Shown here in pieces: positions 1 to 4,003 of a DNA stretch of 4,837 nucleotides. The DNA comes from a virus (lineage: Duplodnaviria; Heunggongvirae; Uroviricota; Caudoviricetes). The stretch's first letter is position 1. Each line of letters begins with the position of its first letter. Under the pieces are notes generated by a model, which was not told the DNA's origin, made no database searches, and was given only the letters and a program-made list of their open reading frames with translations. The stretch lies in IMG/VR virus record IMGVR_UViG_2663762648_000008, one strand, 5' to 3'. Position numbers and translations under genes: made by a program.

Positions 1-241
1 TGGTCTGAAAACATCAATGTCGCGTAAAGGTAACTGTTACGACAACGCTCCGATGGAAAGCTTCTGGGGAACGCTGAAAAATGAGAGCCTGAGCCACTAT
101 CGTTTTAATAACCGGGATGAAGCCATCTCAGTAATACGGGAATACATTGAGATTTTCTACAATCGTCAGCGTCGTCACTCTCGTCTGGGGAATATCTCCC
201 CGGCAGCCTTCAGGGAAAAATATCATCAGATGGCTGCTTAA
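1..241 (+). CDS. IS3-family transposase (OrfB, DDE integrase-type), C-terminal fragment; 5' end lies outside the window
   Basis: Frame open from position 2 (GLKTS-MSRKGNCYDNAPMESFWGTLKNE...), stop TAA 239-241. The SRKGNCYDNAPMESF..LKNE block is the conserved C-terminal region of IS3-family OrfB transposases as I recall it. Confidence 0.8.
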   Translation, partial: GLKTSMSRKGNCYDNAPMESFWGTLKNESLSHYRFNNRDEAISVIREYIEIFYNRQRRHSRLGNISPAAFREKYHQMAA

Positions 242-279
242 AAAAAGAACAAATGGTAGTGTCCGCTATTGCCAGTACA
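1..279 (+). mobile_element. Right end of an IS3-family insertion sequence (IS150-like); terminus inferred near 273-279
   Basis: Transposase 3' end followed 38 bp later by CAGTACA (273-279), the reverse complement of the TGTACTG terminus I recall for IS150-type elements; IS3-family ends are 5'-TG...CA-3'. Exact boundary is not verified. Confidence 0.5.
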
Positions 280-483
280 CCTCATCCATCACCGAAAAAA
301 ATTGGCTTTTACACCATTGGCGATAAAAGCATTTACCTGTATGACCTACGCCGCATGGATGAAATCATGGAGGCTCTTGATAATCGTTCGTCGATGGATT
401 GGTGTGTTGCTGTTCATGATATGAATGCAGGGTTTGATGAAAAGATTTTGTTCCCCTCATCAGTTGAAAGCACTGCGGGTTAA
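253..483 (+). pseudogene. Hypothetical ORF, probably the 3' remnant of a gene interrupted by the IS insertion
   Basis: The ATG at 253 lies inside the presumed IS terminus and has no Shine-Dalgarno (A-rich run). The frame stays open from the IS junction to TAA 481-483 and encodes ...DLRRMDEIMEALDNRSSMDWCVAVHDMNAGFDEKILFPSSVESTAG, which looks protein-like. Confidence 0.3.
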
Positions 484-493
484 GGAGTAACAC

Positions 494-661
494 ATGACCA
501 CTATTACCAAAGAACGTATTGAATTGTTCATTAAAAACCCGCTTGAAAACGGGCTTACCCGTGGTGAACAAATGGAACTGGCACGGATTGCGCTGGCATC
601 GCTGGAAGCAGAGCCGGTTGTGTTCTGGTTTGAAAAATATCAAGAAGGGGCTACGGCATGA
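494..661 (+). CDS. Small hypothetical phage protein, 55 aa ([55 protein letters not shown])
   Basis: Below the length cutoff of the supplied ORF track; found by hand. AAGGAG at 482-487 sits 6 nt upstream of ATG 494. Stop TGA 659-661 overlaps the next ATG (ATGA at 658-661). Shares an N-terminus and an IAL-SL-AEP core with the next ORF. Confidence 0.55.
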
Positions 662-1002
662 CGACTTTTACCAGAGAGCAGTTAATAGCTCACGCAGAGG
701 AGACTATTGAAGCACAGAGACTGTGCATACCGGGCACAATCGACCATGACATCATCCGCACATATAAGATGGATATTGCTGTTCTGGAAATCGCACTGGT
801 ATCGCTGGCAGCAGAGCCAGCCGGTAAATTGCATGAATACAAACCAGTGGGATATCAGCGTCTGGTCGATGAGTTAACCATGCTGGTAAAGCAGTTAACC
901 TGGCAACTGAGGAAAGCGAAGCCAGACTGCAAATTACCGGATAAGGCGATGAGTTATCTGGAGCGGAACGGACTGATAAGCGTGGAGGATATTTTACGAT
1001 GA
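658..1002 (+). CDS. Hypothetical phage protein, 114 aa, paralogous in part to the preceding 55-aa ORF
   Basis: ORF track 658..1002; purine-rich SD (GAAGGGG 644-650) 7 nt upstream; start overlaps the upstream stop (ATGA). Protein-like composition; shares MTT-T-E N-terminus and [10 protein letters not shown] core with the 494-661 ORF. Confidence 0.65.
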
Positions 1003-1082
1003 CCTGGCCTGAAGCATTAACAACGGTAGGAATTGCGATGGCGGTGGCGCTGGTGGTGTATTCGATTTGCCGCTGGGGATAA
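999..1082 (+). CDS. Putative 27-aa hydrophobic peptide ([27 protein letters not shown]), possible single-pass membrane peptide
   Basis: ATG 999-1001 overlaps the stop TGA 1000-1002 of the upstream ORF (ATGA), suggesting translational coupling. It has an 18-residue hydrophobic core followed by CRW. Too short for the ORF track, and coding status is unproven. Confidence 0.3.
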
Positions 1083-1293
1083 AAACGGTTTGCGGGAAAA
1101 GGAGAGTTAAGTAGAATTGCAGCGGGTGCTTGAGGCTATCTGTCTCAGGCATGAACACCAAAAGGCAGATAGAGAAAAGCCCCAGTTAACATTACGCGTC
1201 CGGCAAGACGCTTAACATTAATCTGAGGCTCAATCTATGAACGGCAAATCTAGGTTAGCCTCTTACGTGCCGAAAGGCAAGGAGAAGCAGGCT

Positions 1294-1449
1294 ATGAAGC
1301 AGCAAAAGGCGATGTTAATCGCCCTGATCGTCATCTGTTTAACCGTCATAGTGACGGCACTGGTAACGAGGAAAGACCTCTGCGAGGTACGAATTCGAAC
1401 CGGCCAGACGGAGGTCGCTGTCTTCGTAGACTACGAATCCAGGAAGTAA
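1294..1449 (+). CDS. hokD: Hok-family type I toxin (HokD/RelF-like), 51 aa
   Basis: Translation MKQQKAMLIALIVICLTVIVTALVTRKDLCEVRIRTGQTEVAVFVDYESRK matches my recollection of E. coli HokD/RelF over the first ~44 residues, including the TM helix and the conserved Cys; the C-terminus differs (VDYESRK vs TAYEPEE). AAGGAG 1279-1284 lies 9 nt upstream of ATG 1294. The track's longer ORF 1237..1449 is the same frame with a 19-codon in-frame extension. Confidence 0.85.
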   Translation: MKQQKAMLIALIVICLTVIVTALVTRKDLCEVRIRTGQTEVAVFVDYESRK

Positions 1450-1457
1450 GAGTGACC

Positions 1458-1485
1458 GGGCGGGGAGCTGATCCCATCCCCGCCC
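1458..1485 (+). other. Perfect 8-bp stem / 12-nt loop RNA hairpin in the hok 3' UTR, not a terminator
   Basis: GGGCGGGG (1458-1465) pairs with CCCCGCCC (1478-1485) and no U-run follows. The homologous position in copy B (2375-2396) forms a different but still pairing stem (GGCGGGGG / CCCTCGCC with one G-U), so the structure is kept despite sequence change. Confidence 0.45.
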
Positions 1486-1525
1486 ACCTCTGATGTGTCA
1501 GGCATCCTCAACGCACCCGCACTTA

Positions 1526-1580
1526 ACCCGCCCATCGCTGTGATCTCTCAGCGTTTCGGCGGGTTTTTTGTTGTTTATTT
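1526..1580 (+). terminator. Rho-independent terminator downstream of hok (extended hairpin with inner stem-loop)
   Basis: ACCCGCC (1526-1532) pairs with GGCGGGT (1558-1564), followed by TTTTTTGTTGTTTATTT. The 25-nt loop contains an inner 5-bp hairpin (CGCTG...CAGCG). Copy B has the same outer stem with a simple TTCG loop. Confidence 0.55.
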
Positions 1581-1589
1581 CCGGTGAAT

Positions 1590-1617
1590 TTGATTCGCGC
1601 ACCTTCGCAGATAGAAT
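1590..1617 (+). promoter_or_regulatory. Putative sigma70 promoter for the downstream rem-position gene
   Basis: -35 TTGATT (1590-1595), 16-bp spacer, -10 TAGAAT (1612-1617). Located just after the terminator and ~80 nt upstream of ATG 1699. Motif match by eye only. Confidence 0.4.
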
Positions 1618-1651
1618 CGACTCACTTAAGTAGCGCGCAGGGAGAAGAGGG

Positions 1652-1696
1652 ATGGACCCCGAACAGGGGAGAGCTATTTATCTGGAAGGATTCTGA
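1652..1696 (+). CDS. Putative 14-codon upstream/leader ORF (MDPEQGRAIYLEGF) in the 5' UTR of the 1699 gene
   Basis: GGAG 1641-1644 is 7 nt upstream of ATG 1652. Stop TGA 1694-1696 ends 2 nt before the main ATG 1699, and the ORF covers the main gene's SD (GGAAGGA 1684-1690). It is conserved in copy B (2541-2588). Confidence 0.3.
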   Translation: MDPEQGRAIYLEGF

Positions 1697-1698
1697 AG

Positions 1699-1986
1699 AT
1701 GAAAATCGAAGAATTGCGTGAAATTTTTAGTGAAAATGGCCTCTATGCTGTGCGCGTTGAGAATGGAGCGATTGTCAGCCATTGCCGCATTAGATGTTTG
1801 CAATCTCAACAAAGGAAGAGCGGTGCTGTGTTATTTTATTTTTGTAATGGACTTCTGACGGACGGTTTTATTTTGCGTGAGGACGAATTTGTCACATCAT
1901 TACGGGTTTTGAAAGAGATTGGTTTTAAGGCTGGTTTTCTGCTTTTGCTGAAGAATAAACTCATCTACAATCTTGAGCAGGATTGA
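1699..1986 (+). CDS. Hypothetical protein, 95 aa, in the position between hok and the DUF968 gene (rem-like position in Qin-type prophages)
   Basis: ORF track 1699..1986; SD AGGA 1687-1690 with 8-nt spacer. The first 29 codons are near-identical to the ORF at 2588; the remainder is unique and AT-rich. Confidence 0.5.
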   Translation: MKIEELREIFSENGLYAVRVENGAIVSHCRIRCLQSQQRKSGAVLFYFCNGLLTDGFILREDEFVTSLRVLKEIGFKAGFLLLLKNKLIYNLEQD

Positions 1987-2944: not shown

Positions 2945-4003
2945 GTGCGGGTATTACTTCGACCTGTTCTGGTACCGGAACTCGGTCTGGTTATCGTTAA
3001 GCCAGGCCGTGAATCAATGTCAGCATTCCATAACGGCAGAATACTGGTGGAGCCGGAACCAAAAAGCATGCGTAATCTGCCGTCCGGGGTCGTTCCTGCC
3101 GCTCGCCAGCCGCTGGTGGAAGACAAAACATTGCTGCCGTTTTTCAGTAACGCACGGGTGATTCGTGCTGCTGGTGGTGCTGGTGCATTGTCTGACTGGC
3201 TGTTGCGCCATATTAAATCCTGCCAGTGGCCACACGGCGATTATCATCACAGCGAAACCGTCATTCACCGTTATGGTACCGGCGCAATGGTGTTGTGCTG
3301 GCACTGCGACAACCAGCTGCGTGACCAGACATCCGAATCACTCGAGCAACTTGCTCATCAAAACCTGTCAGCATGGATGATTGACGTCATCGGTCACGCA
3401 ATAAGCGGTACGCAGGAGCGTGAATTATCTCTGGCTGAATTATCCTGGTGGGCGGTCCGCAATCAGGTGGCGGACGCGCTACCGGAAGCGGTATTACGTC
3501 GTTCGCTGGGGTTGCGTGCGGAAAAAATTCGCTCTGTGTACAGTGAAAGCGACATCATACCGGGAGAGCAGACAGCCACCAGCATACTGAAGCAGCGCAC
3601 AAAAAATATTGCGTTACTGCCTCACGTCCACCAGCAACAGAACCCACCACAGGAAAAGACGGTGGTCAGCATTGCCGTTGATCCGGAGTCACCGGCTCAG
3701 TATCTCCAGCGCCAGAAACCACAACGGGAAGAGATGCCTGTATACACGCGTTGGGTAAAAACGCAGAAATGCATGACGTGCGGTAATCAGGCAGATGATC
3801 CGCATCACATCATTGGTCATGGACTGGGAGGGATGGGAACAAAGGCTGATGATTTGTTTGTTATTCCGTTATGCCGTAAATGCCGTAACGAACTACATGC
3901 CGGAGTAAAAGATTTTGAAGAGAAACACGGCAGTCAGCTGTTGTTGCTGATTCGTTTTTTAATGCACGCGAGAAATTCGGGTGTTCTGAAGTGGAAAGCA
4001 TAA
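2945..4003 (+). CDS. DUF968/YdfU-like prophage protein, 352 aa, with a C-terminal HNH-like Cys/His motif
   Basis: Long ORF with protein-like composition; GGAGG 2936-2940 upstream of GTG 2945 (short 4-nt spacer, so the start is uncertain). C-terminal region has C-x2-C ... HH ... C-x2-C ... H (CMTCGNQADDPHHIIGHGLGG...CRKCRNELH). The stop TAA 4001-4003 is immediately followed by the rusA ATG. Confidence 0.8.
   Translation: MRVLLRPVLVPELGLVIVKPGRESMSAFHNGRILVEPEPKSMRNLPSGVVPAARQPLVEDKTLLPFFSNARVIRAAGGAGALSDWLLRHIKSCQWPHGDYHHSETVIHRYGTGAMVLCWHCDNQLRDQTSESLEQLAHQNLSAWMIDVIGHAISGTQERELSLAELSWWAVRNQVADALPEAVLRRSLGLRAEKIRSVYSESDIIPGEQTATSILKQRTKNIALLPHVHQQQNPPQEKTVVSIAVDPESPAQYLQRQKPQREEMPVYTRWVKTQKCMTCGNQADDPHHIIGHGLGGMGTKADDLFVIPLCRKCRNELHAGVKDFEEKHGSQLLLLIRFLMHARNSGVLKWKA

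What the first reader, a model, noticed from the sequence alone, without database searches (positions are those of the whole stretch)
494..1002. Tandem paralogous small ORFs sharing an N-terminus and an IAL-SL-AEP core
The 55-aa and 114-aa ORFs both begin MTT-T-(K/R)E and share the core (E)(L/I)A-IAL(A/V)SL(E/A)AEP, with ~80% nucleotide identity in that core (ATTGCGCTGGCATCGCTGGAAGCAGAGCCGG versus ATCGCACTGGTATCGCTGGCAGCAGAGCCAG). Their stop and start overlap (ATGA). This looks like a local duplication producing two related small proteins of unknown function. Their position just upstream of a toxin gene, where K-12 Qin has relBE, makes a regulatory or antitoxin-like role worth testing.
Basis: seen in the sequence. 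Interest (0 to 1): 0.5.

Follow-up and report, generated by a model that had tools for sequence, protein, structure and literature searches.

The report
Two mosaic EaA-type prophage accessory genes
The two small overlapping genes are ordinary members of a large, shuffled family of lambdoid/P22-like phage accessory proteins (EaA-type). They share a 42-57-residue N-terminal two-helix module whose conserved end is a recombination junction, and nothing ties them to control of the neighbouring hok toxin.

Summary
ORF55 (494-661) and ORF114 (658-1002) overlap in ATGA, both start MTTxT(K/R)E, and they share a 31-nt core that is 26/31 identical (587-617 vs 790-820).

This is not a recent local duplication: the proteins are 33% identical over 54 residues. 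Both carry the N-terminal module of the phage P22 EaA family. ORF55 is 86% identical to EaA residues 1-44. The module is always at residue 1 and occurs in at least 1,081 protein clusters, joined to many different C-terminal parts (DUF551, dATP/dGTP pyrophosphohydrolase, others).

The shared core closes the second helix of a predicted helical hairpin, and it is a mosaic junction: 57 of 132 homology breakpoints fall at 618-620. A natural hybrid gene, P0151, is an exact 203-bp deletion between the two copies.

ORF55 is the module plus a 14-residue tail that also ends an HNH endonuclease gene in other phages. ORF114 adds a C-terminal module shared with N15 gp45/45.1.

Only 285 of 563 ORF114-carrying E. 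coli genomes have it beside hok. hok has its own sok RNA region, and other prophages carry different toxin-antitoxin cargo in that slot. Biochemical function remains unknown; an oligomerisation or adaptor role for the hairpin is inferred. Ordinary, low interest.

The parts
494..661 (+). ORF55: an EaA-type N-terminal module followed by a 14-residue tail. A strong Shine-Dalgarno sequence (AAGGAG) lies 7 nt upstream of the start.
   Evidence: tblastn gives 86% identity to P22 eaA residues 1-44. Sources name relatives 'EaA/Eaa protein' and 'Truncated P22 EaA protein'.
494..619 (+). N-terminal module of ORF55 (residues 1-42, [42 protein letters not shown]).
   Evidence: Matches in IMG/VR loci stop at residue 42-44 in most relatives. 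The profile finds 1,081 cluster representatives, nearly all matching at residues 1-42. Selection on the protein is strongly purifying (dS up to 0.82 with dN 0.03).
587..617 (+). Core motif copy 1 ([10 protein letters not shown]). It closes helix 2 of the module and is a mosaic junction.
   Evidence: 57 of 132 blastn HSP ends fall at 618-620. The Salmonella phage VSe13 match ends at 607 and the ArgO145 match starts at 617. E. coli matches end at 607-620 or start at 611-617.
617..661 (+). Tail of ORF55 ([15 protein letters not shown]) with the ribosome-binding region of ORF114. In other phages the same DNA forms the 3' end of an HNH endonuclease gene.
   Evidence: ArgO145 locus L003 shows HNH ...[19 protein letters not shown] followed by ORF114. 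The same tail sits behind two other N-module variants (P0110, P0120).
658..1002 (+). ORF114: a divergent EaA-type N-module, a disordered linker and a C-terminal helical module.
   Evidence: dN/dS is 0.22-0.33 against 90-95% variants. The AlphaFold2 model has mean pLDDT 74.
658..828 (+). N-module of ORF114 (residues 1-57), predicted as a helical hairpin (H6-26, H30-51).
   Evidence: pLDDT is 86-91 over residues 11-50. The same module is joined to DUF551 or other C-terminal parts in P0182, P0184 and P0186.
790..820 (+). Core motif copy 2 ([10 protein letters not shown]).
   Evidence: 26/31 identical to copy 1. It is the crossover partner in the hybrid P0151. Other N-modules join the ORF114 C-terminal part here (P0156, P0168, P0178).
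865..1002 (+). C-terminal module of ORF114 (residues 70-114, [43 protein letters not shown]).
   Evidence: tblastn matches over residues 70-114 to N15 gene 45/45.1 and H19J, and over 58-114 to ST64B sb31/32, with further matches in Rac. It forms the C-terminus of many longer Eaa-type proteins (P0185-P0221). Predicted helices H64-87, H95-103, H109-113.
999..1082 (+). Unannotated 27-aa hydrophobic ORF ([27 protein letters not shown]). Its start overlaps the ORF114 stop (ATGA), and it travels with the ORF114 cassette.
   Evidence: Read. It is intact, and always 27 aa, at all 44 matches found in the loci held, in 10 protein variants. Cassette homology ends at 1082-1087.
253..483 (+). 5'-truncated copy of the 87-aa gene that normally precedes ORF55 (phrog_1714), cut by the IS3-family element to its left.
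   Evidence: Homology to intact loci starts at window 285.

Best explanation
ORF55 and ORF114 are two translationally coupled members of the EaA-type family of non-essential, highly mosaic accessory proteins of lambdoid and P22-like prophages.

Shown here:
- Each begins, at residue 1, with a version of the same ~42-57-residue module. In ORF114 this module is confidently modelled as an antiparallel two-helix hairpin.
- The conserved core (I/V)AL(A/V)SL(E/A)AEP is the end of helix 2 plus the helix-breaking proline that leads into a flexible linker.
- The protein sequence of the module is under strong purifying selection.
- The module is joined to many unrelated C-terminal parts.
- Because its 3' end stays similar at the DNA level between otherwise different genes, it acts as a crossover point: homology breakpoints pile up there, and a natural hybrid gene is an exact 203-bp deletion between the two copies in this very arrangement.
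- ORF55 is the module alone, joined at the junction to a 14-residue tail that elsewhere ends an HNH endonuclease gene.
- ORF114 is a divergent module plus a small helical C-terminal module, also a shuffled cassette.

Inferred, not shown:
- The hairpin is an oligomerisation or adaptor domain that presents variable C-terminal domains. This is by analogy with lambda Ea22, whose shared N-terminal and coiled-coil part goes with tetramerisation while its C-terminal domains vary.
- The module-only ORF55 either pairs with other module-bearing proteins or is a tolerated by-product.

The genes sit at the end of an accessory cluster, just before a cargo slot that often holds toxin-antitoxin genes. They are neighbours of hok by position, not partners.
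For: Identity of the module:
- ORF55 residues 1-44 are 86% identical to P22 EaA, and 76-100% of the query matches many 'EaA/Eaa' genes.
- P22 EaA is the module followed by a dATP/dGTP pyrophosphohydrolase domain and DUF551.
- The two ORFs cross-hit the same PHROG families.

Family size and architecture:
- A profile of the module finds 1,081 representatives of 50%-identity clusters, 342 of them at E <= 1e-10. Nearly all match at residues 1-42, and protein lengths run from 53 to 457 aa.
- Of 125 representatives, 36 carry DUF551, 15 carry the pyrophosphohydrolase domain and the rest have no Pfam domain.
- At least 58 different sequences follow the motif.

Selection:
- For the module, dS reaches 0.82 while dN is 0.03. 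ORF114 has dN/dS 0.22-0.33.

Structure:
- The hairpin is H6-26/H30-51 with pLDDT 86-91, and the linker 52-63 has low confidence.

Junction:
- HSP ends cluster at 618-620 (57 of 132). Partial matches end or start at 607-620.
- Hybrid P0151 lies between the same 87-aa gene and hok. Its two homology blocks (window 285-615 and 790-1766) overlap by 29 nt, so the crossover falls inside ATCGCTGG.
- Combinatorial hybrids exist on both sides of the motif.

Context:
- The same cassette occurs on the replication/nin side and on the exo-xis/int side of prophages.

Analogy:
- Ea22 mosaicism and oligomeric state are described in PMC10834534.
Against: - No experiment or solved structure bears on the module. 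Fold searches return only generic helical hairpins (E > 0.07) and there are no PDB sequence relatives, so the oligomerisation/adaptor role is inference only.
- The attempt to see whether the two hairpins pack together failed: the natural fusion P0121, folded without an alignment, gave pLDDT 39.
- ORF114's module is only weakly similar to ORF55's (E = 1e-5), so their equivalence in function is assumed.
- The direction of the event linking the tandem pair and the hybrid (deletion or its reciprocal) cannot be told from sequence.
- In this particular window an IS3-family element separates the genes from the upstream operon, so their expression here is uncertain.
Confidence: 0.75

Rival explanations
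1. ORF55 is a non-functional recombination scar: the 5' stump of an eaA-type gene joined to the 3' end of the HNH gene module. Only ORF114 is a working gene, and the apparent 'pair' has no joint function.
For: ORF55 is the module alone. Its tail and the ORF114 ribosome-binding region are the 3' end of an HNH endonuclease gene elsewhere. Other truncated module-only ORFs with different ends exist: 53 and 64 aa in IMG/VR loci, and P0114 fused to the end of the 27-aa ORF. ORF114 occurs without ORF55 in about 240 of 563 genomes. Phage g341c annotates a relative as 'Truncated P22 EaA protein'.
Against: The architecture 'module + [14 protein letters not shown]' recurs with three different module variants (ORF55, P0110, P0120). 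ORF55 is intact in 324 complete genomes, has a strong Shine-Dalgarno sequence and is coupled to ORF114 by ATGA. A tandem 'module-only then module-bearing' arrangement is also seen fused in frame in unrelated representatives (P0241, P0242). None of this proves function; near-clonal prophage spread could explain the intactness.
Confidence: 0.3
2. One reading: the two small proteins regulate or neutralise the downstream Hok toxin, in an antitoxin-like or transcription-factor role. They would occupy the place that relBE holds in K-12 Qin.
For: ORF114 lies 235 nt upstream of mok/hok in this window and in 285 genomes. In a sample of 80 IMG/VR loci carrying the module, 35 have a hok within 2.5 kb. 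Other prophages have another toxin-antitoxin pair directly downstream of ORF114.
Against: Hok is a type I toxin controlled by antisense RNA, and the sok/hok regulatory region is present and complete here (Rfam RF01794, 112 bits, 1124-1299). There is no Pfam, NCBIfam or PADLOC hit to any antitoxin or regulator. Only 285 of 563 ORF114 genomes pair it with hok, and hok-like regions occur at 10,346 places in 4,503 genomes, almost all without ORF114. The cassette boundary (1082-1087) separates ORF114 and the 27-aa ORF from the hok locus. The same genes also sit next to DUF4222/DUF1233/integrase with no toxin. P22 eaA lies in the early-left operon with no hok. Varied toxin-antitoxin cargo in one slot argues for a hotspot, not a partnership.
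Confidence: 0.03
3. The conserved core is kept mainly as a DNA element, a selected 'linker' for homologous exchange of cassettes between co-infecting phages. On this view the protein similarity is a side effect.
For: Breakpoints concentrate at the motif. Motif-only nucleotide matches of 33-42 nt at 98-100% identity occur inside otherwise unrelated DUF551 genes (H222-H224). The hybrid P0151 shows that the two copies do recombine.
Against: The whole 42-residue module, not just the core, is conserved at the protein level while synonymous sites diverge (up to 15.5 synonymous against 2.5 non-synonymous differences). The two copies in the window differ at 5 of 31 positions, 3 synonymous (third-codon) and 2 that change the residue. 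Selection therefore acts on the peptide, and junction use follows from conservation rather than causing it. The two readings are not exclusive.
Confidence: 0.1

Closest known systems
Salmonella phage P22 EaA (317 aa) and its homologues (HK620 hkaE, 'Eaa/EaA protein' of many P22-like and lambdoid prophages)
   Same: ORF55 residues 1-44 are 86% identical to the EaA N-terminus, including IALASL(D/E)AE. Both lie in a non-essential accessory gene cluster of a temperate enterobacterial phage. The function of EaA is listed as unknown (PMC4837284).
   Different: P22 EaA continues into a dATP/dGTP pyrophosphohydrolase domain (PF04447) and DUF551 (PF04448); ORF55 and ORF114 have neither. ORF114's module is a distant variant (33% identity). 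P22 eaA is in the early-left operon near xis/int, whereas here the genes follow the replication genes and precede hok and the DUF968-RusA-Q genes.
Lambda Ea22 and the 'ead/Ea22-like' proteins of the exo-xis region
   Same: The design principle is the same: a shared helical N-terminal part with interchangeable C-terminal domains (one variant carries DUF551), mosaic between phages, early-expressed and non-essential. Full-length Ea22 is tetrameric (PMC10834534). Ead_Ea22 genes sit in the same clusters as the genes studied here.
   Different: There is no sequence membership: neither ORF hits PF13935 or an NCBIfam model. The Ea22 N-terminal part is a long coiled coil, whereas here it is a short hairpin. 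A pro-lysogenic role is documented for Ea22 only.
Phage N15 gene 45/45.1, ST64B sb31/sb32 and H19J ORFs
   Same: They share the C-terminal 45-57 residues of ORF114 at 53-78% identity.
   Different: The N-terminal parts differ, and these proteins are also uncharacterised.
Classical mosaic-boundary recombination of lambdoid phages (modular evolution with short conserved sequences at module joints; cited from general knowledge, not read here)
   Same: A short conserved stretch shared by otherwise different genes coincides with homology breakpoints and with an observed crossover product.
   Different: Here the joint lies inside coding sequence, at a domain boundary of a protein module under purifying selection, rather than between genes.

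Membership tests
EaA-type (P22 eaA) accessory protein family | N-terminal ~42-residue module homologous to EaA residues 1-42, positioned at the start codon | tested here: met
   ORF55: 86% identity over residues 1-44 to P22 eaA. ORF114: weaker, with BLASTP E = 1e-5 to ORF55 and reciprocal PHROG hits; intermediates such as P0185 and P0191 bridge the two.
EaA-type (P22 eaA) accessory protein family | C-terminal dATP/dGTP pyrophosphohydrolase (PF04447) and/or DUF551 (PF04448) domains, as in P22 EaA itself | tested here: not met
   No Pfam hit for either ORF at E <= 0.1. Only 51 of 125 module-bearing representatives have these domains, so they do not define the wider module family.
EaA-type (P22 eaA) accessory protein family | Location in an accessory gene cluster of a temperate enterobacterial (lambdoid/P22-like) phage | tested here: met
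   Flanked by a Cro/CI-YdaT-replication block upstream and hok, DUF968, RusA and Q downstream, in near-identical prophages and in phage vB_EcoS-689R5.
ead/Ea22-like family (PF13935, NCBI 'ead/Ea22-like family protein') | Significant match to the Ead_Ea22 profile | tested here: not met
   No Pfam or NCBIfam hit. Neighbouring genes in related loci do carry PF13935.
   No Pfam, NCBIfam or PADLOC hit. There is no fold match beyond generic hairpins.
   285 of 563 ORF114 genomes have hok adjacent. Hok-like regions occur at 10,346 places, almost all without ORF114. The same gene also sits beside other toxin-antitoxin types or none.
   Needs co-expression or deletion experiments. The hok locus already has its RNA antitoxin region (Rfam sok).
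Recent tandem gene duplicates | Nucleotide similarity along the whole shared region, and the two copies each other's closest relatives | tested here: not met
   Only a 29-31-nt island aligns. ORF55's module is 85-100% identical to modules of genes in other phages but 33% identical to ORF114's.

The most novel reading that the evidence does not exclude
The 42-residue hairpin is an undescribed portable domain (absent from Pfam and NCBIfam) that brings very different effector domains to one common partner or assembly. Those effectors include a dNTP pyrophosphohydrolase, DUF551 and the ORF114 C-terminal module. The module-only ORF55, made just before and coupled to ORF114, would act as a small competitor or partner that tunes the other module-bearing proteins of the same prophage, a phage 'microprotein' regulator. 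The recurrence of 'module-only followed by module-bearing' arrangements (P0241/P0242 fusions, P0110, P0120) would then be selected rather than accidental.
Probability: 0.12. Interest if true: 0.5.

Novelty: new member of a known kind. Interest (0 to 1): 0.22.

Why it matters
It matters little for the original question, because the hok link falls away. Three modest points remain.

1. A strongly conserved, always N-terminal module present in over a thousand protein clusters of enterobacterial prophages has no Pfam or NCBIfam model and no known function. RefSeq therefore labels these genes 'hypothetical'.
2. The locus gives a clean, sequence-resolved example of how a conserved domain end acts as a crossover point for domain shuffling. 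It includes an exact 203-bp deletion product found in nature.
3. The site just downstream is a variable cargo slot for toxin-antitoxin genes, which explains why unrelated small genes repeatedly appear 'next to a toxin'.

Tried and rejected
- Pfam, NCBIfam and PADLOC scans of both ORFs found nothing.
- Foldseek searches of the ORF114 model against BFVD and PDB returned only generic two-helix hairpins (best E = 0.076 and 0.44).
- PDB sequence and profile searches found nothing below E = 0.4.
- The natural ORF55-ORF114 fusion P0121 was folded to see whether the two hairpins pack. I submitted it without an alignment and the model is unusable (pLDDT 39, pTM 0.26).
- The promoter/terminator scan of 200-1700 showed nothing above shuffles. 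The one 'terminator-like' hit (601-618) lies inside the motif and is weak.
- Literature searches for EaA function found only genome annotation tables listing it as unknown.
- Programmed frameshift or read-through between ORF55 and ORF114 was considered because 167-168-aa fusions exist (P0121, P0122, P0144). I rejected it because each fusion has a different indel and all come from raw assemblies, while the standard ATGA overlap explains the coupling.
- I considered the motif as a Chi-like site and rejected it: it does not contain GCTGGTGG. True Chi sites lie elsewhere.

Full report
**What is in the window.** The window is a stretch of an E. coli lambdoid (Qin/Rac-like) prophage. In order it holds:
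- the 3' end of an IS3-family transposase gene (17-241);
- a 5'-truncated 87-aa gene (253-483);
- ORF55 (494-661) and ORF114 (658-1002);
- a 27-aa hydrophobic ORF (999-1082);
- the sok/mok/hok locus (Rfam sok 1124-1299; mok/hok 1237-1449);
- a rem-like ORF, a DUF1367 fragment fused to a second, 5'-truncated hok copy, and another rem-like ORF;
- then DUF968/HNH, RusA and the start of Q.

Near-identical DNA without the IS lies in 241 complete E. coli genomes. There it sits downstream of a Cro/CI-YdaT-replication block in a prophage that also carries dicB-ydfABC. It is also present in phage vB_EcoS-689R5, whose record calls ORF55 'EaA protein'.

**Check of the observation.**
- The two ORFs overlap in ATGA.
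- They start MTTITKE and MTTFTRE.
- They share the cores [14 protein letters not shown] and [16 protein letters not shown].
- The two 31-mers (587-617 and 790-820) are 26/31 identical. The local alignment score is 38, against 17.2 +/- 2.2 in shuffles (family D4, spacing 203).
- BLASTP gives 18/54 identities, E = 1e-5.
- Each protein hits the other's best PHROG family through its first ~55 residues.

So the homology is real. Outside the short core it is visible only at the protein level.

**What the shared part is.** ORF55 residues 1-44 are 86% identical to the N-terminus of Salmonella phage P22 EaA. They are 76-98% identical to the starts of many 'EaA/Eaa', 'DUF550' and 'DUF551' proteins in P22-like and lambdoid phages. 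P22 EaA (317 aa) consists of this module, then a dATP/dGTP pyrophosphohydrolase domain, then DUF551.

A profile of the module, searched against 1.84 billion cluster representatives, finds 1,081 proteins at E <= 1e-3 and 342 at E <= 1e-10. These proteins are 53-457 aa long, and the match is almost always at residues 1-42. Of 125 representatives, 36 carry DUF551, 15 carry the pyrophosphohydrolase domain and the rest carry nothing Pfam knows. At least 58 different sequences follow the motif. Neither Pfam nor NCBIfam has a model for the module.

**It is a protein domain, not just conserved DNA.** Among 29 nucleotide variants of the ORF55-type module, synonymous differences reach 15.5 while non-synonymous differences stay at 0-2.5 (dS up to 0.82, dN about 0.03). 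ORF114 compared with 90-95% variants gives dN/dS 0.22-0.33.

AlphaFold2 with a 23-sequence alignment models ORF114 as follows (mean pLDDT 74):
- a helical hairpin (H6-26, H30-51) with pLDDT 86-91;
- a low-confidence linker (52-63);
- three further helices (64-87, 95-103, 109-113).

The shared core is therefore the C-terminal end of helix 2 plus the proline that ends it. No fold or sequence relative with a solved structure was found.

**The core is a mosaic junction.**
- Partial matches in phage records stop or start at it. Salmonella phage VSe13 shares window 289-607 and continues as a DUF550 protein. Stx phage ArgO145 shares 617-1083 only.
- In ArgO145 the gene upstream of ORF114 is an HNH endonuclease that ends with the same 15 residues as ORF55, [15 protein letters not shown].
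- Against 80 IMG/VR loci that carry the module, 57 of 132 blastn HSPs end at window 618-620.
- In E. coli genomes, sampled matches end at 607-620 or begin at 611-617. Some are motif-only islands of 33-42 nt at 98-100% identity inside other genes.
- At the protein level the database holds the full combinatorial set. ORF114's module is found joined to DUF551 or other C-terminal parts (P0182, P0184, P0186). Four other N-modules are found joined to ORF114's C-terminal part (P0151, P0156, P0168, P0178).

**The two copies in this arrangement do recombine.** P0151 (101 aa) is ORF55's module fused to ORF114's C-terminal part. It is encoded between the same 87-aa gene and hok. Its DNA aligns to window 285-615 and to 790-1766, and the two blocks overlap by 29 nt. 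The switch lies inside the identical octamer ATCGCTGG (597-604 / 800-807), which makes it an exact 203-bp deletion or its reciprocal. The hybrid cassette also occurs on the integrase side of another prophage, next to DUF4222 and DUF1233. So the cassette moves between the two early operons.

**What each gene is.**
- ORF55 is the module alone plus a tail. That tail, together with the ORF114 ribosome-binding site, belongs to the cassette 617-1083.
- It may be a by-product of recombination. However, the same tail follows two other module variants (P0110, P0120). In-frame 'module then module' fusions also exist in other lineages (P0241, P0242). I therefore keep both readings open.
- ORF114 adds a C-terminal 45-residue module that is itself a shuffled cassette. 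It is found at the ends of longer Eaa-type proteins and in N15 gene 45/45.1, ST64B sb31/32, H19J and Rac.

**The link to hok.** Of 5,426 complete E. coli genomes, 563 carry ORF114, 324 carry the ORF55-ORF114 pair, and 285 carry ORF114 joined to the hok leader. Hok-like regions occur at 10,346 places in 4,503 genomes. Homology of the cassette ends at 1082-1087, just before the hok/sok locus, which is complete in itself.

Downstream of ORF114 variants, other prophages carry:
- a Doc-type toxin pair;
- a RelE/ParE-type pair on the opposite strand;
- hok;
- no toxin at all.

P22 eaA has no hok nearby. In 58 module-bearing IMG/VR loci without ORF114, 15 have a hok within 2.5 kb. The association is positional: the accessory cluster ends at a cargo slot that often holds toxin-antitoxin genes. 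No antitoxin, regulator or defence family matches either ORF.

**How it most likely works.** The following are shown: two translationally coupled, selected protein-coding genes; a shared N-terminal helical hairpin; and a conserved hairpin end that serves as a crossover point.

The following is inferred: the hairpin is an oligomerisation or adaptor domain for variable C-terminal domains. The analogy is lambda Ea22, where a shared N-terminal/coiled-coil part goes with a tetrameric state and the C-terminal domains vary between phages, one variant carrying DUF551 (PMC10834534). I could not test the pairing of the two hairpins, because my one attempt used a single sequence and failed.

**Verdict.** The paralogy is right, 'local duplication' is not, and the hok-control idea is not supported. 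These are new members of a known but uncharacterised kind, and the finding is of low interest.

Noticed in passing
window 999-1082 (+): A 27-aa hydrophobic ORF ([27 protein letters not shown]) starts in an ATGA overlap with the ORF114 stop. It is not annotated in the RefSeq locus examined (L001). It is intact, and always 27 aa, at all 44 matches found in the loci held, in 10 protein variants. Cassette homology ends just after its stop. It also precedes hokW in phage 933W. It is likely a real small membrane-protein gene.
   Followed up: partly
window 1049-1056, 3112-3119, 3170-3177 (+); 3576-3583, 3628-3635 (-): There are five exact Chi sequences (GCTGGTGG) in 4.8 kb, against 0.14 expected from shuffles. 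One lies inside the 27-aa ORF and four inside the DUF968/HNH gene.
   Followed up: no
window 1330-1786 vs 2248-2675: A partial duplication of the hok 3' half and its downstream region (repeat families D1-D3 and D5, 79-94% identical). The second hok copy lacks its 5' end and is joined to the first 74 profile positions of a DUF1367 gene (2025-2250). This points to a rearrangement or illegitimate join in this prophage.
   Followed up: partly
window 17-284: The 3' end of an IS3-family transposase gene (NCBIfam transpos_IS3). The element has cut off the first ~20 codons of the 87-aa gene that normally precedes ORF55; homology to intact loci starts at 285. ORF55 and ORF114 are thereby separated from the upstream operon.
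   Followed up: partly
downstream of ORF114 homologues: L003 3591-4102, L091 3177-3860, L093 3136-3291, window 1124-1449: The slot just after ORF114 holds different toxin-antitoxin cargo in different prophages: RelE/ParE-type, Doc-type or Hok/Sok. In L087 and L089 it holds none. It looks like a cargo hotspot at the end of the accessory cluster.
   Followed up: partly
window 1124-1299: The Rfam 'sok' match is reported on the + strand, the strand of the mok/hok mRNA. The 933W record annotates sokW as an antisense RNA on the opposite strand over the equivalent position (L004 2937-3007). The model seems to cover the hok leader/sok overlap region rather than giving the strand of Sok itself.
   Followed up: no
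window 1699-1986 and 2585-2869: Two rem-like ORFs (95 and 94 aa) share their first ~30 residues (MKIEELREIFSE.GLY.VRVENGAIVSHC) and then diverge completely. This is another case of a shared N-terminus with different continuations, here produced by the duplication boundary at about 1786/2675.
   Followed up: no
IMG/VR loci L028-L084 and proteins P0182-P0221: Eaa-type proteins contain further short conserved linkers between variable blocks, such as (P)LYAAPPAPVVPEE, GWNACRAAMLQ(G/S) and NSPVTPDGWISCSERMPE. These look like additional shuffling joints in a beads-on-a-string architecture.
   Followed up: no
proteins P0121, P0122, P0144, P0131, P0149, P0114: Database variants fuse ORF55 to ORF114, ORF114 to the 27-aa ORF, or the N-module to the end of the 27-aa ORF, each through a different indel or deletion. 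Most come from raw assemblies. They may be sequencing errors or real decay of the cluster.
   Followed up: no
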